A DNA stretch of 64,000 bases, from positions 24,404 through 88,403 of the forward strand of contig JAUSHZ010000007.1 in assembly GCA_030648255.1 (NCBI GenBank), given 5' to 3'. The translations under genes and the position numbers were made by a program. Each line of letters opens with the position of its first letter. Position 1 is the stretch's first letter. The stretch is from a bacterium (lineage in GTDB: Bacteria; Patescibacteriota; Minisyncoccia; Minisyncoccales; CG1-02-41-26). The notes below the pieces were generated by a model. The model did not search any database. It was given only the letters and a program-made list of their open reading frames with translations, and had not been told where the DNA came from. This document shows positions 3,359-42,660 of this stretch, one piece after another.

Positions 3359-4738
3359 CTAGAAAACCATTTCTATCTTTATCTTATCTAGGCTTTTTGG
3401 CGCTCTTTTTATCCAAAAAGGCCAAAATTGCGTGTCCAGTCGTTCAATTTGGGGGTAGCTATTATTCAATAAAATCTCCATATCTTCTTTAGATTTTCCA
3501 GCTAAATCCGCAATTAAGGCTGTTTGGTCAATATCATTATAAAGCTTGGCATCTGTTTTTAAATTAAAAATCAAACTCCCTTTTTCCGTAATGCTGCCTT
3601 TTGGAACTACGCTTGTCGCTAAGCTTTGTTCGTATAATTTCTTTGAAGAAGATAGTTTTGTATCAATAAAGCTTTTGGCCATATCCTGCAAATCTGATCC
3701 CTTAAAAACAATTGTCTTAGCTTTTATTTTTGCATAACAATTAAATTCAGCGAGGTTGGCGCCAACAGCTTGAGAACAAGAGAACTCGGGCTCGCCATAG
3801 TCAACTGATTCTTGGTTAAAAGAAAATCCAGCGGTTGTTTGCTCCTTCAAGCCCGAAACAGCCATTTTTTTTAACTCCCTAATCAAGCTTTCTTGAGCAT
3901 TATCCATATCTCCTTGAGTTACTTGATCAACTTCTTTCTGACCCCCGCCGTCAATTTTTTCTCTTGATTCACCCCAAACATTATAGTATAAAGCTGTTCC
4001 TGTTAATCCTGGAATAGAAAACTTAGCAGGGGCTATATTATATTCCTCTCCCTCCTGATCAGCGACAACCTGAACCTCTGTAATGCTTGGGGTTAATTTT
4101 CCATTAAACAATGTGGCTTGGGGCAAAGAAATCTTATTTTTTGCCCGATAAACCTTTCCATCTTTTGATGATATAAATCTTGTTCCTGCTTTTAAGTTTA
4201 AGGGCATTGGGGGATTAATATTATTGTAAACAAATATAGCGCCCGTTGCCCCAGATTGTTCTGTTTCTTTTCCAGTTGACTTAAATGTTTCCCATTTCTC
4301 TACTTCTTTTTCAATTACATTTCCGGGAATAATCTTTTTTTCAAAATCGATTTGCGCTTGAGAAAAAGAAACTTGAATCTCGTCTTTAATTGTAATTGGC
4401 TCTAATAGCGGTTTCACGCTTATTTCTGCTTTTGCCTGCATCGTTAAATATAAAAAGGCTCCCCCTAAAAGCAAAATGGCTACACCAATAACTATGGGAA
4501 TTTTTAGAGCAAGTCTTGGTAAAGTAAAAGAAACTCGAATTTCTTTTTTTCCCTTGCCACGTCGGAGTTCCGCAGGAACGGAGGCGGGTCTTTCTTTTTT
4601 CACCTCCCCCTTCTTCATCCCCTTTCTTGTAGGTGATTTTTTTTGAGGCTTAGTTGAAGCTAAAACAATTGGAAATTGTTCCTCTGTTTCTTCTGCTTCT
4701 TCCTCATCTGGATTTGTTATATCAATAATTTGCTTCAT
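3359..4738 (-). CDS. Hypothetical membrane-anchored protein: acidic then basic N-terminus, one TM helix, ~380-aa extracytoplasmic domain
   Basis: 459-aa ORF. The TM segment is IPIVIGVAILLLGGAFLYL. No recognisable family. It sits inside the r-protein operon. Confidence 0.5.
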   Translation of the reverse strand: MKQIIDITNPDEEEAEETEEQFPIVLASTKPQKKSPTRKGMKKGEVKKERPASVPAELRRGKGKKEIRVSFTLPRLALKIPIVIGVAILLLGGAFLYLTMQAKAEISVKPLLEPITIKDEIQVSFSQAQIDFEKKIIPGNVIEKEVEKWETFKSTGKETEQSGATGAIFVYNNINPPMPLNLKAGTRFISSKDGKVYRAKNKISLPQATLFNGKLTPSITEVQVVADQEGEEYNIAPAKFSIPGLTGTALYYNVWGESREKIDGGGQKEVDQVTQGDMDNAQESLIRELKKMAVSGLKEQTTAGFSFNQESVDYGEPEFSCSQAVGANLAEFNCYAKIKAKTIVFKGSDLQDMAKSFIDTKLSSSKKLYEQSLATSVVPKGSITEKGSLIFNLKTDAKLYNDIDQTALIADLAGKSKEDMEILLNNSYPQIERLDTQFWPFWIKRAPKSLDKIKIEMVF

Positions 4739-32247: not shown

Positions 32248-32436
32248 TTATTCCTCAACCTCAACCCCACACTCCCGACAAAAAATCTTAAAATCATTTA
32301 TGTTCTCGGTATGGTCAACCTGAAGCTGGCCATCAGAAAAAGTCAAAATGTCGTATTGATTCGGCTCACTAACAAACTCCCCCGCCCCACACTTCGCACA
32401 ACACCCATCAACTATTTTAAAAAACTTTTTTGACAT
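32248..32436 (-). CDS. Small Zn-ribbon protein (two C-x2-C pairs)
   Basis: 62 aa with CCAKC...CREC. Confidence 0.45.
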   Translation of the reverse strand: MSKKFFKIVDGCCAKCGAGEFVSEPNQYDILTFSDGQLQVDHTENINDFKIFCRECGVEVEE

Positions 32437-32440
32437 GAGT

Positions 32441-32983
32441 TTAAAATATTCTAAAAATAAAAAAATCTTGTGGTAAAAAAGAAACTAGAATAACCGTAGT
32501 GCCAATGACAAATAAAATTAGTAAAACATTTAATGCGGTAGTTCCATAATTTTCCTGTTCTTTTGGTTGCTTCATTGTGTTTGCTAAATTTATCGTTTTT
32601 TCTTTTAATTGTTCCATTCTAATTTCTATCAAATCCTTTGACACTATTTGCATTCTTGCCTCAATGATTTTACCTAATTCCTTAATCCATTTTTTATATT
32701 TTCCAGCTTCATCAATAAAAGTTCTCTTCACCCAAAAAATTGCGTATGCGATAGATAAAAATAATATAAATTGTCCAAGTAGCCATAATTCTAAATGTTT
32801 TGCAAAAGATAATGCTGTAAAGCCAAAACCAGCTATTAAACCAAACACTTGGACTAATTTATATACATAATCAAGTGCCCTTTCCCTCACTTTCTCGTGT
32901 GCTTGCACTATTTCTTCCTGTAATTTTATATCCTCGTGAAGATAATATAAATTATCTTTGAGTAATTGTGTGTATTCTTTCAT
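32441..32983 (-). CDS. Hypothetical membrane protein
   Basis: 180 aa with 3-4 TM helices. Confidence 0.4.
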   Translation of the reverse strand: MKEYTQLLKDNLYYLHEDIKLQEEIVQAHEKVRERALDYVYKLVQVFGLIAGFGFTALSFAKHLELWLLGQFILFLSIAYAIFWVKRTFIDEAGKYKKWIKELGKIIEARMQIVSKDLIEIRMEQLKEKTINLANTMKQPKEQENYGTTALNVLLILFVIGTTVILVSFLPQDFFIFRIF

Positions 32984-33036
32984 ATTTTAAAAACCTTCTT
33001 TGCCATAGATTTAATTAGCTGGAATCTAAAAGAAAT

Positions 33037-33285
33037 TTACCTATATTTTTCTGGCATAAATTTTGCTTCTTCCTGCCAAGTCAAATTAAATACATCTTCG
33101 CCAATTCTATGAAATTCAAATAGACAATCTCCATCTACACATCCATCTTCTTCGTCCCATTCCTCAACACTAACCATATTTTCGTCTTTTAAACAATCAA
33201 CCGTACCTAATCCATTTTTTTCGCAAATGTCTGCTATATCGTCAAAAGAATACTTTTTATCTTTTGTAAAAATTTCCATAATCAT
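33037..33285 (-). CDS. Small acidic Cys-containing hypothetical protein
   Basis: 82-aa ORF. Confidence 0.35.
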   Translation of the reverse strand: MIMEIFTKDKKYSFDDIADICEKNGLGTVDCLKDENMVSVEEWDEEDGCVDGDCLFEFHRIGEDVFNLTWQEEAKFMPEKYR

Positions 33286-33457
33286 AATTAAGAAATATTT
33301 CTTTTACATCTTTTTTTGAGTATCTCTCAATAACAACACTCTTATTCCAAACTTGTAGATCTTTTCCCTCGTACTCCAAATAATCAAACGGCTCAGTAGT
33401 CGTTTTGAAATACGAATAAATTTTATTGTATTGAGATTCTAATTTTTTATAATTCAT
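33257..33457 (-). CDS. Small hypothetical protein
   Basis: 66-aa ORF. Confidence 0.3.
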   Translation of the reverse strand: MNYKKLESQYNKIYSYFKTTTEPFDYLEYEGKDLQVWNKSVVIERYSKKDVKEIFLNYDYGNFYKR

Positions 33458-33462
33458 AATTT

Positions 33463-34305
33463 TTATGAAAAATCTGTTAAAAACTTGATTTGGTTTGCTT
33501 GTTGCACATTAAAGTTTATTTTATTTTTGATAAATTCCAAACGATATTCTGGAGAAATTTCCCCGCCATTTGCCAACCTATCTAAAATCATTTGATAATA
33601 TTTAGGATGTATTTCACAAGAAACAAAATCTCTCTTAAGTTCTTTACATTTTAGTAGCTCTGAACCACTCCCACCAAACAACACAAAAATATTGTCGCCT
33701 TCTTTGGTGCTTGATTTTATCAACATTTCAACTAAGCTCAAAGGTATTTGGCAAGAATGAAAAGTTTTATCTTTAGAAACATTTTTAACTAAATCAAAAT
33801 AAAACCAAGAGTATGGCATCCTTCCAGCACTTCCATTTTTAATTCTTCCCTGTATTCTTTTATCGGTTGGATTTTGATAGGGTAAAGCAACTTGATCTTT
33901 ATAAAAATTATTATTTTTTGTTTTTGTAGCGTGTAAAATAACTCTATGGGCAGTGGTAAATTTTTTATCGCTATGGCCAATATTTGAGTTATAAACCCAA
34001 ACATAGTCATTTACTAAAAAGGCATTGTCGTCTAGAAATTTTACTCTTAAATAGGCATTTTGTTTTGGGTAATTCATCATAAATAAATTCCCTGTCGGTT
34101 TTAAAACCCTCATACATTCTTTCGTAAGCTCAATATACCAATCAATATACTCATTCCATTTAGCGGTAAATTTTTTACCAGCATAATTTATGCCCACATT
34201 ATAATCTGGGTCACCATATACCATATCAACCGAATTATCTGGCATTTTCTTTAGAGTAACTAGAATATCGTCATTAAAAATTTTGTTTATAAAATTTTCT
34301 ATCAT
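33463..34305 (-). CDS. DNA methyltransferase, beta-class N4/N6 (DPPY-like DPDY then FGGSGS)
   Basis: Motif IV-like VYGDPDYNVG lies N-terminal to the AdoMet motif VLFGGSGS. This is the ParB-less PF01555 architecture. Confidence 0.7.
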   Translation of the reverse strand: MIENFINKIFNDDILVTLKKMPDNSVDMVYGDPDYNVGINYAGKKFTAKWNEYIDWYIELTKECMRVLKPTGNLFMMNYPKQNAYLRVKFLDDNAFLVNDYVWVYNSNIGHSDKKFTTAHRVILHATKTKNNNFYKDQVALPYQNPTDKRIQGRIKNGSAGRMPYSWFYFDLVKNVSKDKTFHSCQIPLSLVEMLIKSSTKEGDNIFVLFGGSGSELLKCKELKRDFVSCEIHPKYYQMILDRLANGGEISPEYRLEFIKNKINFNVQQANQIKFLTDFS

Positions 34306-35141
34306 TTTTTGTTTTGATTTATTAAGTTATACCTAACTGACTTTAAAAATTTAATTGAAGTTATGTCTTGGGGATTAGTAAAAGTATAAGCATACAAATT
34401 AAGTGCATCAAACCCCTTTTGCCTTTCCCTGACCACATAGATACAAACAATTTCTTTTATTTTTGTTTTTAATTCTGGTTTTTGTTTTGCCTGCCAATAA
34501 TAAAGAAAGGGGTGGTAAATTTGGTATATCGAAAAATTCGTTGGCTTACCATTTTTTGCTTCAAAAATCCCTATTTTGCCCATAAATTCAATCGTTAAAT
34601 CAATCTCAATCTGAACTTTATTTAGTTTTATCCCTACATTTTTACCAAAACCATACCCTAAATTAGCTTTTGTTCTATGGGGAAAATATGTTTTTGGTCT
34701 ACTGGCAATGTCCGAATTATCAAACTCTTTGTCTTGACCAAATAAAAAGTGATGCAAAATTCGCTGATTGTTTGCAACCGACAAAATATTCGATTCGCTG
34801 GTGTTGTATTGGTTTAAAATTGATTTTTTATATTGCCAATCAATTATCTTTTGTATTGGCTCAAAATTATGATAAATTTTTTCTATATCTTTAATAAACT
34901 GGTGCTTTCCACTTCCTAAATGAATAAGAGCAAAATCTTCTTTTTGCAAAGCAACAGGCAGTCTTTCTTTGGTATCTAGTTTTGTAGCGTCGAAATGATT
35001 TTGAAATCCTACTTTTTTAGAAACCGCTTTAACTAAGTCATTGTCAAAAACAAAATCGTTTTTATCTTTACAAATTTTAAAAATCATCGACAAAACCTTT
35101 TTCTTTTTATTTTCTTTTTGTGAAGCTTTTTTGGTACTCAT
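34302..35141 (-). CDS. Putative type II restriction endonuclease (partner of adjacent MTase)
   Basis: Overlaps the MTase gene by 4 bp. Has a PD-(D/E)xK-like ...IEID...FEAK. No other homology is recognisable. Confidence 0.45.
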   Translation of the reverse strand: MSTKKASQKENKKKKVLSMIFKICKDKNDFVFDNDLVKAVSKKVGFQNHFDATKLDTKERLPVALQKEDFALIHLGSGKHQFIKDIEKIYHNFEPIQKIIDWQYKKSILNQYNTSESNILSVANNQRILHHFLFGQDKEFDNSDIASRPKTYFPHRTKANLGYGFGKNVGIKLNKVQIEIDLTIEFMGKIGIFEAKNGKPTNFSIYQIYHPFLYYWQAKQKPELKTKIKEIVCIYVVRERQKGFDALNLYAYTFTNPQDITSIKFLKSVRYNLINQNKK

Positions 35142-35165
35142 AATTTTATTTTTACTATATCAAAA

Positions 35166-35786
35166 TTAAATACTTTTGTCTTTCACTACATCTGTGAAAT
35201 TTCTCAAAACACTGATGACTTTGCCTTGGATTATTACGGTTTTAACATATAGGGGTTTTAAGGCGGGGTTGGCGGGTTGGAGGCGGATGCGGGTTTTTTC
35301 TTTAAATATCTTTTTTAAAGTAACTTCGTTGCCGTTTATCAACGCCACAGCTGTTTCCCCATTTTCTACGGTGTTTTGTTTGCGGATTATCACAGTATCC
35401 CCATCAAAAATACCTTCGTCAATCATACTGTTGCCTTTTACCCCCAAAGCAAAATGTTCGCCCGAGACAGCCACCATATTTTGAGGCACGGTTATAGTTT
35501 CGTGTTCTTCAATAGCTTCAATTGGCTCACCTGCGGCAATGTATCCCTTAAATGGAATGCTAACACTTGACTCCTGCTTGCCAACTTTTACAGCTCTAGC
35601 GATATTTTTTTCTCGCGTAATATAACCCTTTCCTTGCAAGACCTGCATATAGTGGTTCACTGTTGAAACAGACGCCAACTTAAAATGTTTTCTTATTTCC
35701 TCGTGCGATGGGCTATACCCATTTTTTTCAAAACAATTTTGAATATAATCCAAAAACTTTTTTTGTTTTTTAGTAAGTGAAAACAT
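35166..35786 (-). CDS. lexA: LexA-like repressor (HTH + S24 peptidase)
   Basis: N-terminal winged HTH. C-terminal VKGNSMIDEGIFDGD with a Ser/Lys dyad. Start taken at MFSLTKKQ. Confidence 0.75.
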   Translation of the reverse strand: MFSLTKKQKKFLDYIQNCFEKNGYSPSHEEIRKHFKLASVSTVNHYMQVLQGKGYITREKNIARAVKVGKQESSVSIPFKGYIAAGEPIEAIEEHETITVPQNMVAVSGEHFALGVKGNSMIDEGIFDGDTVIIRKQNTVENGETAVALINGNEVTLKKIFKEKTRIRLQPANPALKPLYVKTVIIQGKVISVLRNFTDVVKDKSI

Positions 35787-35850
35787 ATGAATACTTTTAT
35801 TCACTGTAATAGAACAAAAATAGAAAATCAAGCCAAGTTATCCACAGCAA

Positions 35851-35875
35851 CCAAAAAGACGGCTTTAGCCGTCAT
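35851..35875 (-). terminator. Intrinsic terminator after hicB locus
   Basis: On the minus strand, gacggctaaagccgtc followed by tttttgg. Confidence 0.5.
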
Positions 35876-35901
35876 TAGACAAAAACACCCCTTAAAAAAT
35901 T

Positions 35902-35962
35902 TTACAGAAACTTTGAAAATTCTGCTGGCGAAACATTTATTTCCCGCAAAATTTGTCTTAAT
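35902..35962 (-). pseudogene. HicA-toxin C-terminal remnant (…LLRQILREINVSPAEFSKFL*)
   Basis: A 20-24 codon open frame directly after hicB. It resembles the HicA C-terminus (...ILKQAGIS.EEFLKLL). It has no start codon, and a stop lies 5 codons upstream. Confidence 0.35.
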
Positions 35963-36155
35963 AATTTAGGCTGTACTTAGGATTTGTTTTCGCTACTTCA
36001 AGGCAAAGCAAGATTGCTTCGCGAATTCTTTCTTTTAAATCCCCTAATGTTTTTGCTTGCGTATGACAACCAGGCAGGGCTGGCACAGAAGCCACGAAAT
36101 AGCCGTCTTCATCCTGCTCAATAATAATTTTATATTGATTGATTTTTTTAGCCAT
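35958..36155 (-). CDS. hicB: HicB-family (UPF0150) antitoxin
   Basis: 65 aa. ...DGYFVASVPALPGCHTQAKTLGDLKERIREAI is the hallmark of standalone HicB. Confidence 0.75.
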   Translation of the reverse strand: MAKKINQYKIIIEQDEDGYFVASVPALPGCHTQAKTLGDLKERIREAILLCLEVAKTNPKYSLNY

Positions 36156-36225
36156 AAGTTTATTTTTATGTTAGACAAAAAATTCCCCAAAGTCAAATTT
36201 TCCGCCAAAATACCATTAACTCATC

Positions 36226-36552
36226 TTAAACTCCCAAATCCCTTTTCTTCTCCTCAAATTCTTTTTTATCTATTTCACCTTTCGCGTATCGTTCTTTCAA
36301 AATCTCAAGCGGAGATTTTTCATGCGCGCCATCGCTATGGTTGTGTCCGCACATATGACCCTTTCCAGAACCTCCTCTTATTAAAGCTATAATCCCCCAA
36401 ATTATGAGGCCCCAAAAAACCAGCATAAAAATCCAACCGAATCCGCCAAAAGGCGTAAATCCAAAATTCATCATACCTTGCGCAAGGGAGAAAGTCGGCA
36501 AAACAAAACTTAAAATAAAAATAAAAGTTGTGATAAAAAATATTTTTTTCAT
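36226..36552 (-). CDS. SHOCT-domain membrane protein
   Basis: Signal/TM region followed by the C-terminal LEILKERYAKGEIDKKEFEEKKRDL. Confidence 0.55.
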   Translation of the reverse strand: MKKIFFITTFIFILSFVLPTFSLAQGMMNFGFTPFGGFGWIFMLVFWGLIIWGIIALIRGGSGKGHMCGHNHSDGAHEKSPLEILKERYAKGEIDKKEFEEKKRDLGV

Positions 36553-36562
36553 AAATTTATTG

Positions 36563-36955
36563 TTATCTAAACCACTCCTTTAAACTTTTTGGAATTTCCA
36601 ACAGATATAAAAGCGCCAACGGCGCGCCGATATTGGCAAATCGTTCTACAAAGTCCCAAATGGGTTCTCCGGCTATTGGCCGAATAAGCGCGGTGGCAAA
36701 TGCCCAAAACGTCATCCAGAGCAAAGCTATTCTAACTGGTTTTATCAGAATTAAAATGGCAAGGGCTATATCTAAAGCGCCGATAAGCGGTAAAAGAGTA
36801 ACGGCGGTATCCGCCGAAATGCCCACCGAAGTAAAATAAGGAATCCAGCCTTGCTTTGCTTGCAAGCCAAATACGCCATGGCCGATAAACTCGCCAGCCA
36901 CGGCTACCCGCAGAATCCATTCAATTTTTTTAGAGTTTTCCATATTTTTATTCAA
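36563..36955 (-). CDS. DoxX-like small membrane protein
   Basis: 130 aa with 3-4 TM helices. Confidence 0.4.
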   Translation of the reverse strand: MNKNMENSKKIEWILRVAVAGEFIGHGVFGLQAKQGWIPYFTSVGISADTAVTLLPLIGALDIALAILILIKPVRIALLWMTFWAFATALIRPIAGEPIWDFVERFANIGAPLALLYLLEIPKSLKEWFR

Positions 36956-37282
36956 TTAACCGAAAACTAAAACTTTATCCGAGTCCTCGACCATTTTTAG
37001 CAAGTCGGGCATCGTGGAAACAGGACACACCTTGCTTTCCTCTTTGCCACGAACTTTTAGACAAGTTCCGCAAGCATAAATTTCACCTTTTGACTCTTTA
37101 AACTCCGCCACTTTCATGGATATGTCAAAATTCTCGCTGTCTGGAATAATATCAAGTTCTGACCCCTCGTTCATTAAAAAAATTTTCACTTGATGGCTTG
37201 CTTTTAAAGCGGTAATTCCAAAACGAAATGTATTCCACACATGTTCAGGTTTATTTGATTGCAAGATAATACCGAGTTTCAT
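36956..37282 (-). CDS. DsrE/DsrF-like family protein
   Basis: 108 aa. The architecture MKLGIILQSNKPE...CGTC is DsrE-like. Confidence 0.45.
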   Translation of the reverse strand: MKLGIILQSNKPEHVWNTFRFGITALKASHQVKIFLMNEGSELDIIPDSENFDISMKVAEFKESKGEIYACGTCLKVRGKEESKVCPVSTMPDLLKMVEDSDKVLVFG

Positions 37283-37863
37283 AATTTAATATGTTGTTTT
37301 GATTCTTTTATAATTTTAACCGAAAAATATAAAACCAATCCAGCCATTCCCATTCCAACGATTATATCAGGCCACATAGAGTTGAAGTAGCCAACCAAAA
37401 TTCCAGCTCCAATAACGCTGATGTTTCCATACACATCATTTCTGGAGCAAATCCAGGCAGACTTCATATTTATGTTTTTATCTCTATATCTTGTTAGAAG
37501 GAAAAAACATACGACATTGGCTACAAGGGCCAAAATACCAATCAGCGTAATAGTTTGCGCCGATGGAACTACTGGATAAAACACTCTATAAAATGATTGC
37601 CAAAGAACATACAAACCTACTGTAAGCATTATAACACCTTTTATTAGAGACGCCCTCGCTTGGGTTTTATGGTTTTTAGATAAAACAAATAAACTAAGCC
37701 CGTACACAAACGCGTCCCCAAACATATCCAAAGAATCAGCGATCAATACATTAGAGTGAGCCACTATTCCGCTTGCCAATTCAGTAAAGAACATCCCGGC
37801 GTTGATAAAAAAAGCTACATAAAGCACCCACTTTATCCTCGGCTCTATATTACAGCAATCCAT
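37279..37863 (-). CDS. Cation diffusion facilitator family transporter, TMD only
   Basis: LIADSLDMFGDAFVYGLSL is a CDF signature. 194 aa with no cytoplasmic C-terminal domain. Confidence 0.6.
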   Translation of the reverse strand: MDCCNIEPRIKWVLYVAFFINAGMFFTELASGIVAHSNVLIADSLDMFGDAFVYGLSLFVLSKNHKTQARASLIKGVIMLTVGLYVLWQSFYRVFYPVVPSAQTITLIGILALVANVVCFFLLTRYRDKNINMKSAWICSRNDVYGNISVIGAGILVGYFNSMWPDIIVGMGMAGLVLYFSVKIIKESKQHIKL

Positions 37864-37867
37864 AATT

Positions 37868-38800
37868 TTAGAATATTATAAATTTTTTAATCTCGGTTCT
37901 GTAAACACGGTATGGCTTGGGCCCTACGAAAGCTTTGCCATTGATAAAAACTGTCGGGGTGCCATAGAGATGGGTTTTTTGCAGCTGTTCGAGCTGATAC
38001 TCTACTGCGTCAACGGTTTCTGAATTATTAAGGCATTGATTAATTTTATTTACATCAAACTCAAAATTATCCAAGATTCTTTCCATATAATCCTTGCCAT
38101 AAATTGCCACTTTATCTACTGTAAATAAATAATCGTTAAACTGCCAAAATCGTTCACCATATTCTTTATACACGCAATATCCAATCTCCGACAAGTAATT
38201 TGTGGTTTCTTTAGCGGGATAGTGGGCAAAAGTATAATTGGTTTTTTGTTCTTTCACTAATTTTTGAATATCGGGATATGCCTTTCGAGTATAGTCACAC
38301 TCATAACACCCTATTAAAACAACTGTATTTTTTGAACCGATATTTTTAGTTGGAAAACTTGATAAATCTACATTGTCAAGAGTTACATTTTCCTCTTTCT
38401 TTTCTACCTCCGGGCACTGAACGTTAATTTCAGTCACTTTATTGTTTTCGCCTTTTGGGTCAAAAGCGCAAAAACCGCTTTGGTTGAGGCCATTACAGCT
38501 GCCATAAAGATAATAATTATATCCGCCTTTTACCACCCAAAAAGTGCTGGCTACCATTAAGATAAGAAATGCCCAGGAAAAAACTTCAAAGTATTTATTG
38601 AAAATACGAGCGGCAAAAACAGACCTGTTTAACAGTCGGGCGACTAATTGACTTTTTATTTTTTCATTGAATCCGGTGTTGCACGGACGGAGTGTTACTC
38701 TTCTAAATACGCAGTCTAACGCCTCTTTAGCTAACACTCGGTGCGTAGCGCTGAAAATTCCGAGTATAGAAAATACAATCAAAGCTATAATACAAATCAT
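37868..38800 (-). CDS. Membrane-anchored DsbA-like thioredoxin-fold protein
   Basis: N-terminal TM helices. The C-terminal thioredoxin-like domain has CYEC. Confidence 0.5.
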   Translation of the reverse strand: MICIIALIVFSILGIFSATHRVLAKEALDCVFRRVTLRPCNTGFNEKIKSQLVARLLNRSVFAARIFNKYFEVFSWAFLILMVASTFWVVKGGYNYYLYGSCNGLNQSGFCAFDPKGENNKVTEINVQCPEVEKKEENVTLDNVDLSSFPTKNIGSKNTVVLIGCYECDYTRKAYPDIQKLVKEQKTNYTFAHYPAKETTNYLSEIGYCVYKEYGERFWQFNDYLFTVDKVAIYGKDYMERILDNFEFDVNKINQCLNNSETVDAVEYQLEQLQKTHLYGTPTVFINGKAFVGPKPYRVYRTEIKKFIIF

Positions 38801-40005
38801 AATATTTTAATTATTTTATTGAATGTTTCAATAAAAATTTTTGCCTCATCCATAGTATTATAAAAATACAAAGACACCCGAGCAGAATTTTTAATCTTTC
38901 TATCATTAAACCAAGAATGGACGCAATGCTGGCCAGACCTAATCATTACATTGGACATCTCATCTAGTATTAAAGTGGTCTGGTGCATATCCGTACCATC
39001 AATATAAAAAGAAATAATGCCCGACCTTAAAGCCGAATCGCTAGGGCCAATGATTTTAATTTTTGGAAATTTGCTTATTTCTTCGGTAATATAGCGATTT
39101 AGTTTCAACTCCTGCTCTCTTATATTATCAAATCCTATGGCTTCAAGGTACTTAATCGCCTCGCCAAGCCCTATAATTCCAGCGTAATCCTGAAGTCCGG
39201 CCTCAAATTTTTCTGGCGATTGCAACATTTTGTGGTCAGTATAAGTAGAATATTCTACTGTGTCTCCCCCAACCATAAATGGTTCTAATTTTTCAAGTAA
39301 GTTATATTTTCCATAAAAAACACCTGTGCCAGTCGGCCCCAACATTTTATGCCCAGAAAAAGCCATAAAATCAACATCTAAATCCCTTACATCAATTTTT
39401 TTATGCGGAGCGCTTTGCGCCGCATCCAAAAATACTAAAGCGCCATTTTCGTGGGCAATTTTAATAATTTCTTTAGCTGGAATTGTCGCGCCATCTAAAT
39501 TTGAAGTGTGAACCATTGACACCAATTTTACCCCCCTTACCAATTCTTTGTACTTTTCAAAATTAAAAACACTGTCGTCGTTTGATTTGACTATCTCATG
39601 ACGAATTCCTTTCTTCTTAATCAATACTTGCCACGGAATCAAATTGGAATTGTGCTCCTTGTCGGTAGTTAAAACCAAGTCCCCGTTTCTTAGATCTAAT
39701 GAGTTGGCTAACAAATTGATTCCTTCGGTGGTGTTTCTCGTAAAAACGATTTCTTGTTCGTCAGCGTTAATAAACCTGGCAACTGCCTGTCTCGCTCCTT
39801 TTATTTTCTTTGTAACCAATTCGCCTAGACGATGCGAACTTCTACCCGCACACGCTGGAAATTCAAAATAATATTCGTTCATCGCTTCAATAACCTGCCT
39901 CGGCTTCAAGCTCATACAAGAACTGTCAAAATAAATTATCTTTTTATCATTTATCTGCTTACTCAATAATGGAAAATCATTTTTAATTTTTTCGTAATTT
40001 AACAT
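38797..40005 (-). CDS. Cysteine desulfurase (class V aminotransferase, SufS/NifS-like)
   Basis: 402 aa with a SGHK PLP-lysine motif. Confidence 0.8.
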   Translation of the reverse strand: MLNYEKIKNDFPLLSKQINDKKIIYFDSSCMSLKPRQVIEAMNEYYFEFPACAGRSSHRLGELVTKKIKGARQAVARFINADEQEIVFTRNTTEGINLLANSLDLRNGDLVLTTDKEHNSNLIPWQVLIKKKGIRHEIVKSNDDSVFNFEKYKELVRGVKLVSMVHTSNLDGATIPAKEIIKIAHENGALVFLDAAQSAPHKKIDVRDLDVDFMAFSGHKMLGPTGTGVFYGKYNLLEKLEPFMVGGDTVEYSTYTDHKMLQSPEKFEAGLQDYAGIIGLGEAIKYLEAIGFDNIREQELKLNRYITEEISKFPKIKIIGPSDSALRSGIISFYIDGTDMHQTTLILDEMSNVMIRSGQHCVHSWFNDRKIKNSARVSLYFYNTMDEAKIFIETFNKIIKIL

Positions 40006-40017
40006 TTTTTACAGGAT

Positions 40018-42660
40018 TTAGCTCATTTTGCTCAAGCGAGCGAAGAGAAAGAAAATTAAAGTGAATATTATGGCCATGGCAAACGGGGCTACACTAGAAA
40101 GCCAGTTGCGTTTGTTTGGCTTAAAGCCACGCAAAAATAATGAATTAGAAACCACCGAAACCGAGCTCAAAGCCATAGCCAGGCCTGCCAATTCGGGTTT
40201 TAAAACAATGCCCAGCCCCACCAAAACTCGAGCCGCAATTGGAATGCCCATTACATTATAAAACAAAGCAAAAAACATATTTTGTTTTATTTTGCTCATT
40301 GTTTCTTTGCTTAACTGTATGGCAGTTAACACATCTCGCAAATCATCTTTGATTATCACAATGCCCCCTGCCTCCATTGCCACGTCTGTGCCACTGCCCA
40401 TAGCAATGCCCAAATCCGCTTGGGCTAAAGCTGGAGCGTCATTTATGCCATCTCCCACCATTGCCACTTTAATACCTGTATCTTGCAATTTTTTAATTTC
40501 ATTGGCTTTATCTTGAGGCAGAACTTCAGCTAAAACATTTTTTATGCCAGCCTGTTTAGCGATAGCTTGGGCTGTTCTTTGATTGTCCCCTGTTATCATA
40601 TAAACGGCTATGCCTCTTTTTTGTAATAAAGAAACTGTTTCTGCTGATGTTTCTTTAATAGTGTCAGCCACCGCCACCAATCCCAAAATTTCCTGGCTTG
40701 AAGCCAAGATCATTACGGTCTTTCCTTCTTCTTCTAAGCGTTTCATCTTTCTTTCGATGCCTTCCACTTTAAAGCCAGCGATATCCATAATTAACTTACG
40801 ATTGCCCAAATAATATTTATTAGCATTGATAACTCCCTCAACACCATGCCCGGGAATTGCTTTAAAATTACTTGCTTCTTTTATAGTAATTGCCTCTTCT
40901 CCTGCGTATTTAACAATGGCTTCAGCTAATGGATGTTCGGATAATTTTTCCAAGCTTGCTGCTATAGCGATAACTTCGTCTTCGTCAATTGAGGTAACTC
41001 CAACAATATCTGTAACCTCTGGCTTGCCTTTAGTTAAAGTGCCTGTTTTATCAAAGACAATCGCCCTTACTTTACAAGCCGCTTCCAATGGCTCCCCTCC
41101 TTTAATTAAAATACCGCTTTCAGCGCCCTTGCCAGTTCCTACCATAATAGCGGTTGGCGTGGCTAATCCCAAAGCACAAGGGCAGGCAATAACAATTACC
41201 GAAGTAAATGCCATTAAAGCAAAACTCAAGCTAGAACCTAATATAAAAAACCAAATTAAAAATGTTAAAACAGATATTCCCAAAACAATAGGCACAAACT
41301 TAGCGGAAATTTTATCAGCCACCGCCTGAATAGGGGCTTTAGAGCCTTGGGCGTCTTCAATTAAGCGGATAATTTGCGCTAACGCAGTTTCTTTGCCAAC
41401 TTTAGTGGCTTTAAATTCAAAACTGCCATTTTTGTTAATAGTGGCGCCAATAACCATATCCCCAATATTTTTTTCTTTGGGAATGCTCTCCCCTGTTAGC
41501 ATTGACTCGTCCACCGATGACTGGCCTTTAACAATAACACCGTCAACTGGAATTTTTTCACCCGGCCGAACCACCACAATATCCCCTGCCATTACTTGGT
41601 CCACTGGAATATCAACTGTTGAACTGCCACGAGTCACTCGAGCTGTTTTTGGCTGCAAGCCAACCAGCTTTTTAATGGCTTGAGAAGTTCTGCCTTTGGC
41701 TTTTGCCTCAAGAAACTTTCCTAAAGAAACAAAAGTAATTAAAAAAGCGGCTGTTTCAAAATAGAGTTCTGGTATTTTGGCGCCAGCCAATCCGATTACA
41801 GAATTATTTACAACAATATAATTAATAAACTGCCACAAGCTATAGAAAAAAGCGGTGCTGGTGCCAATGGCAATCAAACTATCCATATTAAAGGTTTTCA
41901 TTTTCAGCCCGCTCCAAAACCCTTTGTAAAATCCCTTGCCAATAATAAACTGGACAGGCAAAGTTAAAATTAAAGAAATAATGCCAATGTAGGGTAAAAA
42001 AGCAACGCCTCCCGGTAAGAACTTAAAAAAGTCCAAGAACATAAAGTAAAGCATTGGGGCAGACAACACTGCTCCCCAGATAAATTTCCTCCACAATGAT
42101 TTTATATGCTTTTCTTTGTTAGCGCTTTCTTCCTCTGTGTTTGCCTCCTCGTGTACAGATGCTTTATAGCCAGCTTTATTAACAGCAGAAATTAAATTTT
42201 CAACTGAAGAAACCGAGCTATCAAAAATAACCCGGGCTTTTTCCGCGGCAAAGTTAACCGAAGCGGTTTTAACCCCAGGCGTTTTTTTAATTGCTCTTTC
42301 AATAATACCTGCGCACGAAGCGCAATGCATTCCGCCTAAAATTAAGCTAATATGTTCTTCTCCTTTGCTTTTTGTTGAAGAGGAATCTGGCAATGAGTCG
42401 TGATGGGGCATTTGAGGTGGCTGCAGAACAACCCCAGAGCTAATATTTTGGGTTGATTTAACATCCCCAGAAAAAATACTGAACAACTGGCTAATTTTTG
42501 AAGAGTGAATTAAATTTTCAACAATTTTATCAATGTCTTCTCGGCCTTGGGGCACCTCAAACTCGCCTTTTTTATAATGCTTAACCTTACCTTCAAAATT
42601 TGGAATGTCATTTTTAGAAGAAAAGCTACCTTCTGCTTCCACCATTGACTCCACCTTCAT
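40018..42660 (-). CDS. copA: Copper-translocating P1B-type ATPase
   Basis: HMA domain [25 protein letters not shown]. The likely start MKVESM (cat 42658-42660) avoids overlap with the upstream copZ. The longer six-frame ORF reaches 42765. Confidence 0.9.

What the first reader, a model, noticed from the sequence alone, without database searches (positions are those of the whole stretch)
35851..36155. hicB antitoxin followed by a decayed hicA toxin remnant
A textbook 65-aa HicB (UPF0150; ...YFVASVPALPGCHTQAKTLGDLKERIREAI) is followed, in the -1 frame, by ~20 codons resembling a HicA C-terminus (LLRQILREINVSPAEFSKFL*). There is no start codon and a stop lies 5 codons upstream. A terminator follows. 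The arrangement suggests a degraded toxin with a retained, possibly repurposed, antitoxin.
Basis: partly seen in the sequence, partly recalled or inferred. Interest (0 to 1): 0.5.

Follow-up and report, generated by a model that had tools for sequence, protein, structure and literature searches.

The report
Broken hicBA toxin-antitoxin cassette
This is an ordinary relic of a small toxin-antitoxin gene pair: one 219-base deletion removed most of the toxin gene (hicA) and also the conserved end of the antitoxin gene (hicB), so only a shortened antitoxin and a dead 20-codon toxin stub remain.

Summary
A 65-aa HicB ORF lies at 35958-36155 (minus strand; Pfam PF15919, 34.6 bits against a cut-off of 27). 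In the -1 frame it is followed by 20 codons plus a stop (35902-35964). These are identical in protein sequence to the C-terminus of intact 75-aa HicA toxins that sit directly downstream of the closest HicB relatives. A conserved promoter and an intrinsic terminator flank the pair.

The HicB is not "textbook". Its nearest homologues are 82 aa, and the window copy lacks their last 20 residues, which carry the invariant YEPxFxGLE motif. Compared with an orthologous locus (L169, same flanks, intact hicA), the window lacks 219 bp. The missing stretch runs from hicB codon 63 to hicA codon 55 and includes the catalytic Gly-x-His.

No other hicA lies in the 64 kb. About one third of 153 related hicB loci also lack an intact hicA, so this decay is common. 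The cassette belongs to the described Class 2 hicBA type (small HicB without a DNA-binding domain, upstream of HicA).

One puzzle remains. An identical junction occurs in a diverged allele in a different genomic context (L168), and the two toxin stubs differ almost only at synonymous sites. Overall the finding is ordinary and of low interest.

The parts
36168..36196 (-). Promoter-like site of the cassette: TTGACT, 17 nt, TAACAT. The ATG of hicB lies 12 nt downstream.
   Evidence: Consensus scan, 9 of 12 matches. The TTGACT box and the TA(A/C)AAT box sit at the same positions upstream of hicB in L001, L002, L005, L006, L168 and L169. Function is inferred, not shown.
35958..36155 (-). Truncated hicB (hicB'), 65 codons plus stop. 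Residues 1-62 (36155..35970) are native. L63-N64-Y65 (35969..35961) and the TAA stop (35960..35958) arise at the deletion junction.
   Evidence: PF15919 at 34.6 bits. It is 90% identical over residues 1-61 to 82-aa homologues that end ...KYCQQIKDYSYEPSFIGLELITV. The protein is identical to GenBank MDO8524259.1, annotated 'HicB family antitoxin'.
35962..35969 (-). Deletion junction zone (CTAAATTA). hicB sequence lies to the left and hicA sequence (TTATTAAGA...) to the right. The exact breakpoint is ambiguous within these bases.
   Evidence: Alignments with intact cassettes L001, L002 and L169. From the hicB ATG to the end of the hicA stop the cassette is 254 nt here and 473 nt in L001 and L169, a difference of 219 nt or 73 codons. 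Only 4-7 nt direct repeats flank the breakpoints in intact relatives.
35902..35964 (-). hicA remnant: codons for L56-L75 of a 75-aa HicA plus the original TAA stop, in the -1 frame relative to hicB'. It has no usable start codon. The catalytic G29-x-H31 and the whole beta-sheet are missing.
   Evidence: phmmer E 2.5e-6 and HicA HMM E 1e-4. The peptide is identical to the C-terminus of HicA in L002 and L169, and all DNA differences from those two are synonymous (5/0 and 6/0). The intact relative passes PF07927 at 71.9 bits and matches PDB 1whz at E 5e-11.
35853..35873 (-). Intrinsic terminator of the cassette: a 6-bp GC-rich stem, a 4-nt loop and a T5 run.
   Evidence: Scan result. The same hairpin sits at the same place after hicA in L169, and similar ones follow hicA in L001, L006 and L168.

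Best explanation
The locus is the wreck of a Class 2 hicBA type II toxin-antitoxin cassette. This type has a promoter, a small HicB without a DNA-binding domain, an overlapping hicA, and a terminator.

In the intact form, seen in relatives, hicB encodes 82 aa and its stop overlaps the hicA start (ATGA). HicA is a 75-aa RNase with a double-stranded-RNA-binding-like fold, and HicB neutralises it by covering its active site.

In the window lineage a net loss of 219 bp removed hicB codons 63-82 and hicA codons 1-55. What remains is:
- the promoter;
- a 65-codon hicB' (62 native residues plus LNY), which ends at a stop codon created by reading hicA's Leu-Leu-Arg codons out of frame;
- the last 20 codons of hicA, which cannot be translated;
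- the terminator.

The toxin is certainly dead, because it has no start codon, no Gly-x-His catalytic motif and no beta-sheet.

The shortened antitoxin keeps strands 1-3 and helix alpha1. In solved HicAB complexes this surface packs on HicA. It has lost the conserved YEPxFxGLE tail, which probably forms the fourth strand of the fold.

Shown: the homology, the extent of the deletion, the loss of the motifs, and the absence of another hicA in 64 kb. Inferred: the deletion is evolutionarily recent; hicB' is most likely a relic that may still be transcribed, rather than a selected orphan antitoxin.
For: - HicB identity.
- Homologues are 82 aa with a conserved tail.
- Intact hicB-hicA with an ATGA overlap in L001, where HicA scores 71.9 bits on PF07927.
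- The hicB-then-hicA order holds in 104 of 153 assessable related loci.
- L169 is an orthologous locus. Its flanks are 86-89% identical to the window on both sides, it has an intact 75-aa hicA, and its cassette is 219 nt longer.
- The stub matches HicA residues 56-75.
- The stub's differences from L002, L169 and L088 are 5/0, 6/0 and 7/1 synonymous/nonsynonymous, so most divergence accumulated while the gene was still coding.
- Promoter and terminator are conserved.
- The same sequence was assembled independently in a Logan contig (L087), 100% identical over 7987 nt.
- The catalytic Gly/His and the HicB-alpha1 interface come from the literature.
Against: - The junction cannot be derived from any sampled intact allele by one clean deletion. 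A further 2-nt or 9-nt change has to be assumed.
- An identical junction exists in a diverged allele in another context (L168). This fits neither a single recent private deletion nor simple neutral decay.
- Nothing here shows whether hicB' is expressed or stable.
- The AlphaFold model of the 82-aa homologue gives the tail pLDDT below 50, so its structural role (strand 4 or toxin contact) is inferred from family knowledge only.
- dS values near 1 are close to saturation.
Confidence: 0.9

Rival explanations
1. The shortened HicB' is kept by selection as an orphan antitoxin. It is expressed from the intact promoter and neutralises HicA toxins encoded elsewhere in the genome or on incoming mobile elements (an anti-addiction role). 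The deletion origin is the same as in the best explanation; only the present-day status differs.
For: - The promoter and ORF are intact.
- The retained part contains helix alpha1, the HicA-contacting element in solved complexes (PDB matches).
- L169 carries an intact hicA together with a hicB stopped at codon 66. If that sequence is real, a 65-aa HicB is enough to neutralise HicA.
- Truncations just after Tyr61 recur: window and L168 (LNY*), L006 (QPI*), L169 (QQI*), L170 (LSFLT*).
- If the window and L168 junctions are identical by descent, the core has evolved at dN/dS 0.055 since the deletion.
- Solitary hicB genes are known.
Against: - The lost tail holds the most conserved residues of the subfamily.
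- No hicA partner lies in the 64 kb.
- The low dN/dS is equally explained by a recent deletion.
- L169 comes from an unpolished assembly. Its tail codons after the stop are still intact, so the stop may be very recent or an error.
- Solitary hicB genes, both full-length and truncated, are what ordinary decay of toxin-antitoxin loci produces.
Confidence: 0.2
2. The deletion is an assembly or sequencing artefact, and the real genome carries an intact hicBA.
For: The window is evidently from a metagenome-assembled genome, and such assemblies can collapse repeats.
Against: - A second assembly pipeline (Logan, L087) gives the identical 7987 nt.
- The breakpoints share no repeat longer than 7 nt, so a de Bruijn graph collapse is not expected.
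- An independent sample carries the same junction in a different sequence background (L168).
Confidence: 0.03
3. The stub is still read, either as a 15-codon micro-ORF starting at the in-frame TTG (35949..35947) or as a fusion to HicB' by ribosomal frameshifting. Its protein sequence is therefore under selection.
For: Between the window and L168, which share the junction, 8 of the 10 nucleotide differences in the stub fall on third codon positions and only one amino acid changes. In a simulation of random substitutions the probability of one or fewer changes was about 4e-4.
Against: - There is no ATG or GTG start.
- No slippery heptamer lies between the upstream stop (35979..35977) and the hicB' stop (read directly from the sequence).
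- The only upstream TTG in L168 is CAG in the window.
- The TTG at Leu61 is the ordinary Leu codon in intact genes as well.
- No HicB-HicA-tail fusion protein is among the 120 closest homologues. All 50 aligned ones carry the canonical tail.
- The synonymous pattern is explained more simply if both stubs were coding until recently.
Confidence: 0.03
4. The 20-codon resemblance to HicA is a chance match, and the downstream sequence is merely the 3' untranslated region of a naturally short hicB.
For: Pfam and NCBIfam give no hit for the fragment on its own.
Against: - phmmer E 2.5e-6, and a family HMM E 1e-4 as the only hit in the window.
- 55/60 nt identity to the hicA 3' end of L002, including the stop and the following bases.
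- The position between hicB and the shared terminator matches that in L169.
Confidence: 0.005

Closest known systems
Class 2 hicBA modules (Gerdes, 'Diverse genetic contexts of HicA toxin domains', bioRxiv 10.1101/2023.12.08.570793)
   Same: - Gene order is hicB then hicA.
- HicB is small (63-103 codons) with no recognisable DNA-binding domain.
- The genes overlap, suggesting translational coupling.
- HicA is 60-85 aa.
The intact relatives of this locus (L001, L169, L088 and others) fit all of these.
   Different: The window copy is not a working module. hicA is reduced to its last 20 codons, and hicB lacks the last strand region of the beta-beta-beta-alpha-beta fold.
Solitary hicB genes (for example the two in the Methanosarcina barkeri defence island noted in the same paper)
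   Same: A hicB stands without a functional hicA partner next to it. In my census 29 of 153 related loci have no hicA downstream and 20 more have a disrupted one.
   Different: Here the remnant of the partner is still visible, so the route of loss can be reconstructed. The hicB itself is also truncated.
Structurally solved HicAB systems: Burkholderia pseudomallei HicAB (PDB 6g26, 6g1c), Yersinia pestis HicA3-HicB3 (4p78), E. coli HicAB (6hpb)
   Same: - The N-terminal partial RNase H fold of HicB. Sequence hits: E 0.004 to 6g1c and E 0.008 to 6g1n/6g26. Foldseek probability 0.96-1.0 to 6u0i, 6g1c, 4p78 and 6hpb.
- The HicA catalytic His preceded by Gly.
   Different: Those systems have the order hicA then hicB, and their HicB carries a C-terminal RHH or HTH DNA-binding domain. 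This subfamily has neither.
Thermus thermophilus small HicB-like proteins TTHA1756 (2yzt, 67 aa) and TTHA1013 (1wv8), and HicA TTHA1913 (1whz)
   Same: These are the closest solved sequences. HicB matches 2yzt at E 2.4e-8. The intact relative's HicA matches 1whz at E 4.8e-11 over residues 10-72, which includes the stretch retained in the window.
   Different: Those are complete proteins. The window has 62 native HicB residues and 20 HicA residues.

Membership tests
HicB antitoxin (Pfam PF15919, HicB_lk_antitox) | Sequence matches the family profile above the curated cut-off | tested here: met
   34.6 bits against a cut-off of 27, E 2.4e-8, residues 8-55 on profile positions 1-48. The UPF0150 model PF21748 is below its cut-off (22.6 against 27.3).
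HicB antitoxin (Pfam PF15919, HicB_lk_antitox) | Complete beta-beta-beta-alpha-beta partial RNase H fold | tested here: not met
   The AlphaFold model of the 82-aa homologue shows strands 11-14, 20-23 and 31-34 and helix 37-57, all retained in the window. Foldseek matches this model to solved HicB structures. The region after residue 62 is deleted in the window. It aligns to the pre-strand-4 segment of B. pseudomallei HicB and carries the invariant P72, F74 and G76. Caveat: the model itself gives this tail low confidence.
HicB antitoxin (Pfam PF15919, HicB_lk_antitox) | Encoded next to a hicA gene | tested here: inconclusive
   Only a 20-codon hicA stub is adjacent. Intact partners are present in relatives.
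HicB antitoxin (Pfam PF15919, HicB_lk_antitox) | Binds and neutralises HicA | not testable with these tools
   This needs a co-expression rescue or binding assay. No multimer structure prediction was available.
HicA toxin (Pfam PF07927) | Sequence matches the family profile | tested here: not met
   The 24-aa or 31-aa fragment gives no Pfam hit. Only about 10 of 58 profile positions could remain, because the profile ends at residue 65 of the intact protein. Homology to the C-terminus of bona fide HicAs is nevertheless significant.
HicA toxin (Pfam PF07927) | Catalytic His with Gly two residues upstream (G29-S30-H31 in the intact relative) | tested here: not met
   Residues 1-55 are deleted and only L56-L75 remain. 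The role of these residues is taken from PMC11594946.
HicA toxin (Pfam PF07927) | Complete ORF with a start codon | tested here: not met
   The stop-free stretch is 24 codons (35976..35905) and contains no ATG or GTG.
Class 2 hicBA module (Gerdes classification) | hicB upstream of hicA, closely linked or overlapping | tested here: met
   The order is preserved in the window, with the stub downstream of hicB'. An ATGA overlap is seen in L001, L002, L088 and L169. hicA is immediately downstream in 104 of 153 related loci.
Class 2 hicBA module (Gerdes classification) | Small HicB without a recognisable DNA-binding domain | tested here: met
   The 82-aa homologue hits only PF15919 and PF21748. The structure model shows no RHH or HTH.
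Functional type II toxin-antitoxin system | Both toxin and antitoxin genes intact | tested here: not met
   A 219-bp internal deletion removes parts of both genes.

The most novel reading that the evidence does not exclude
The 65-aa HicB core followed by the hicA tail may be a recurrent or spreading allele that selection maintains, not a private accident. The identical junction (GCCTAAATTATTAAGRCAAATTTTGCG) occurs in the window, which lies upstream of lexA, and in L168, which lies upstream of a gene whose first 19 codons resemble arginyl-tRNA synthetase. The two alleles are 14% diverged, and the differences in both the hicB core and the hicA stub are overwhelmingly synonymous.

This would mean one of three things:
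- a sequence-directed deletion hot spot that repeatedly disarms this cassette in the same way;
- lateral spread of a disarmed cassette that serves as an anti-addiction antitoxin;
- a stub that is still translated.
Probability: 0.12. Interest if true: 0.5.

Novelty: new member of a known kind. Interest (0 to 1): 0.2.

Why it matters
On its own it matters little. Decayed toxin-antitoxin loci and solitary antitoxin genes are common, and the protein is already labelled HicB in GenBank.

It has some practical value for annotation. The gene should be flagged as a truncated hicB next to a hicA pseudogene, not counted as a working toxin-antitoxin system or as a complete antitoxin.

The comparative set gives a small natural experiment on Class 2 hicBA modules, which have not been studied experimentally. 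It contains intact, frameshifted, nonsense, partly deleted and fully deleted alleles of one cassette. It suggests that the first 62-65 residues of HicB may be the part that matters for neutralisation. It also suggests that loss of the toxin often goes together with loss of the conserved HicB tail. Both ideas can be tested cheaply.

Tried and rejected
1. A frameshifted full-length HicB. Because the relatives are 82 aa, I checked whether the 'HicA-like' codons were the shifted HicB tail. They are not. The tail ...YSYEPSFIGLELITV is not encoded in any frame downstream.
2. Pfam and NCBIfam scans of the fragment alone and of an artificial HicB-stub fusion gave no HicA hit. I replaced them with phmmer and a purpose-built HMM.
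3. A second hicA or hicB in the window: none found in six-frame searches.
4. A clean microhomology-mediated deletion. Direct repeats at the breakpoints in intact relatives are only 4-7 nt (TTAA at a spacing of 219 in L169; TTATT at a spacing of 209 in L002). None reproduces the observed junction without an extra 2-nt or 9-nt change. No intact allele with ...KYSLNYSYEP... was found.
5. More copies of the junction. The pattern is absent from viral contigs. Only two LNY* alleles exist in the protein collection's cluster.
6. A known RNA in the stub or terminator region: no credible Rfam match in 35000-37000. The fold z-score of -2.1 is mainly the terminator.
7. The structural role of the HicB tail. 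AlphaFold on a 50-sequence alignment left residues 71-82 at pLDDT below 50, so no conclusion can be drawn from the model.
8. dN/dS as a test for relaxed selection on hicB'. Values of 0.03-0.09 are indistinguishable from those between intact alleles (0.04-0.11), and dS is near saturation. The test is uninformative.

Full report
**What is in the sequence**

On the minus strand, ORF 35958..36155 encodes MAKKINQYKIIIEQDEDGYFVASVPALPGCHTQAKTLGDLKERIREAILLCLEVAKTNPKYSLNY. It passes Pfam HicB_lk_antitox (PF15919) at 34.6 bits, cut-off 27.

In the -1 frame, bases 35964..35905 read LLRQILREINVSPAEFSKFL and are followed by TAA (35904..35902). The same frame has a TAA four codons upstream (35979..35977) and no ATG or GTG in between.

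A promoter-like site (TTGACT, 17 nt, TAACAT; 36196..36168) precedes hicB. A terminator hairpin (35873..35858, then T5) follows the stub.

**Is the HicA resemblance real?**

Pfam and NCBIfam do not detect the 24-residue piece. Comparative data settle the question.
- The closest HicB homologue on a long contig (L001, a Pacebacteria MAG) is followed, with an ATGA overlap, by a 75-aa gene. That gene passes Pfam HicA_toxin at 71.9 bits and ends ...GRGLLRQILREINVSPADFFKFL.
- phmmer with that HicA against six-frame pieces of the window and all fetched loci hits the window stub at E 2.5e-6, aligned to residues 55-75.
- An HMM built from 106 intact HicAs next to related HicBs hits it at E 1e-4. It hits nothing else in the 64 kb.
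- The stub peptide is identical to the HicA C-termini of L002 and L169. The DNA is 55/60 and 54/60 identical to them, and every difference is synonymous.
- The Pfam model covers only residues 10-65 of the intact protein, which explains why it misses the stub.

**The HicB is also truncated**

Nearly all of the 120 closest homologues are 82 aa, not 65. They end ...KTNPKYCQQIKDYSYEPSFIGLELITV. In an alignment of 50 of them, P72, F74 and G76 are invariant and Y70, E71 and E78 nearly so. The window protein diverges after S62 and stops three codons later. The missing tail is not encoded in any downstream frame, so this is loss and not a frameshift.

**The deletion**

L169 (Logan assembly of SRR22388067) has the window's flanks. 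Upstream it has the 3' end of the 915-aa gene (89% identical). Downstream it has the same terminator, intergenic region and lexA (86% identical). Between these flanks it carries a full-size cassette with an intact 75-aa hicA.

From the hicB ATG to the hicA stop, L169 and L001 measure 473 nt and the window measures 254 nt. The difference is 219 nt, or 73 codons. The loss spans hicB codons 63-82 and hicA codons 1-55. This includes the Gly29-Ser30-His31 motif, which corresponds to the catalytic Gly/His of characterised HicAs (PMC11594946). It also includes the entire beta-sheet of the fold; the alignment to PDB 1whz covers residues 10-72.

The new hicB' stop codon is made from hicA's Leu57-Arg58 codons read out of frame.

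The exact breakpoint is ambiguous within CTAAATTA (35969..35962). No sampled intact allele yields the junction by a single clean deletion. Either a 217-nt deletion at a TTA microhomology plus a 2-nt change, or a 210-nt deletion at TTATT plus a 9-nt in-frame loss, has to be assumed.

A Logan contig (L087) is 100% identical to window 32309..40295, which argues against an assembly error.

**What it was, and how it worked**

The intact relatives match the Class 2 hicBA modules of Gerdes (bioRxiv 10.1101/2023.12.08.570793). In this class hicB lies upstream of hicA, the genes overlap, and HicB is small with no DNA-binding domain.

The AlphaFold model of an 82-aa homologue gives three strands and a long helix (residues 11-57, pLDDT about 80-87). 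Foldseek matches this model to solved HicB structures (6u0i, 6g1c, 4p78, 6hpb, 1wv8). The closest solved sequence is TTHA1756, PDB 2yzt, at E 2.4e-8.

In solved complexes, helix alpha1 of HicB packs on the HicA sheet and masks the catalytic His. The window's HicB' keeps that helix but lacks the conserved tail. By family knowledge the tail should supply strand 4. The model left it unstructured at pLDDT below 50, so this step is inference.

**How common is this?**

I examined 166 related loci fetched from genomes and metagenomes. Of these, 153 have enough downstream sequence to judge:
- 104 have an intact hicA immediately downstream;
- 20 have a disrupted or partial one;
- 29 have none.

Within the closest clade there are several independent inactivations:
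- a 1-nt deletion at about hicA codon 14 in L002-L004, seen in three samples, while L005 is intact at that site;
- a deletion of the HicB tail and all of hicA in L006, upstream of argS;
- an in-frame stop or frameshifts in L008, L009 and L091;
- solitary truncated hicB genes in L170 and in L171/L172.

Decay of hicA beside a surviving hicB is therefore routine.

**Age of the deletion and status of hicB'**

The stub has no nonsynonymous difference from L002 or L169, although 5-6 of its 60 nt differ. Most of that divergence therefore accumulated while hicA was still coding, and the deletion is comparatively recent.

For that reason the low dN/dS of the hicB core does not show selection on the truncated protein. 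It is 0.03-0.09, against 0.04-0.11 among intact alleles.

L169 combines an intact hicA with a hicB stopped at codon 66 (AAA to TAA). The tail codons behind that stop are still perfect. If this sequence is real, a 65-aa HicB can hold HicA in check. It could also be a very recent mutation or an error in an unpolished assembly.

I rate 'relic' as more likely than 'selected orphan antitoxin', at about 0.2 for the latter.

**An unexplained detail**

L168 is a 778-nt contig of GCA_041643195.1 whose HicB ends ...RYCLNY*. It carries exactly the same junction as the window (GCCTAAATTATTAAGGCAAATTTTGCG). Yet it differs from the window at 25 of 183 nt in the hicB core and 10 of 63 nt in the stub. It lies upstream of a gene whose first 19 codons resemble the argS of L006, not upstream of lexA.

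In the stub, 8 of the 10 differences fall on third codon positions and only one amino acid changes. In a simulation of random substitutions the probability of one or fewer changes was about 4e-4.

A single old deletion followed by neutral decay does not predict this pattern. Two independent deletions giving the same complex junction are also unlikely. Short-patch recombination that moves the deletion between backgrounds is a third option. Only two such alleles are on record, so I could not resolve this.

**Context**

The cassette sits between a SHOCT-domain membrane protein gene and lexA. No known RNA family lies in the region. The closest relatives are from Patescibacteria (Pacebacteria or Paceibacterota) MAGs. 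The window's own protein is GenBank MDO8524259.1, from a MAG labelled only 'bacterium'.

**Verdict**

The locus is a decayed member of a described class of toxin-antitoxin modules. Interest is low, at 0.2. The shared junction is the only feature that might repay a further look.

Noticed in passing
window 35962-35976 (-) and L168 535-561: The identical hicB/hicA deletion junction occurs in a 14%-diverged allele in a different genomic context (L168, upstream of an argS-like gene). The differences between the two hicA stubs are almost all synonymous: 8 of 10 fall on third codon positions and only one amino acid changes. This fits neither one old deletion nor two random ones.
   Followed up: partly
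window 36228-40018 (-): A block of six genes is absent from the related contig L169. The genes are a SHOCT membrane protein, a DoxX-like protein, DsrE, a cation efflux protein, a DSBA/thioredoxin protein and a class V aminotransferase. In L169 the 3' end of the 915-aa gene (window 40019-40176, 89% identical) directly abuts the hicB promoter. This is either an insertion in the window lineage or a deletion in L169.
   Followed up: partly
L169 223-695: This locus is orthologous to the window. hicB carries a TAA at codon 66 (AAA in relatives), while the downstream tail codons and the 75-aa hicA are intact. Either a 65-aa HicB is sufficient to neutralise HicA, or this is a very recent mutation or an assembly error.
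   Followed up: partly
window 33463-35141 (-): Directly downstream of lexA lie a DUF6996/DUF6997 protein (34302-35141) and an N6/N4 DNA methylase (33463-34305) whose ORFs overlap. This looks like a restriction-modification pair.
   Followed up: no
window 35787-35969 (+): A 60-aa ORF runs antisense to the terminator and the hicA stub. It was called as a gene in the Logan contig L087, has no Pfam hit and is probably spurious.
   Followed up: no
L002-L004 about 4285-4290, compared with L005: The same 1-nt deletion at about hicA codon 14 (GATGTT-TTAGTG) is present in contigs from three different samples. A fourth contig (L005) with the identical HicB has the intact reading frame. A hicA frameshift allele therefore appears to be segregating in nature.
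   Followed up: partly
L170 999-1199; L171 1501-1713; L172 124-336: Further truncated solitary HicBs. In L170 a 66-aa form ends ...ARYLSFLT and is overlapped by a convergent comEC gene. In L171 and L172 a 70-aa form is followed, with an ATGA overlap, by a 188-aa protein with no Pfam family in the place of hicA.
   Followed up: no
window 35166-35831 (-): The mechanical ORF for lexA starts at TTG 35831. The likely start is ATG 35786, giving 206 aa as called in L087. The intergenic stretch between the hicBA terminator and lexA is nearly identical in L169.
   Followed up: no
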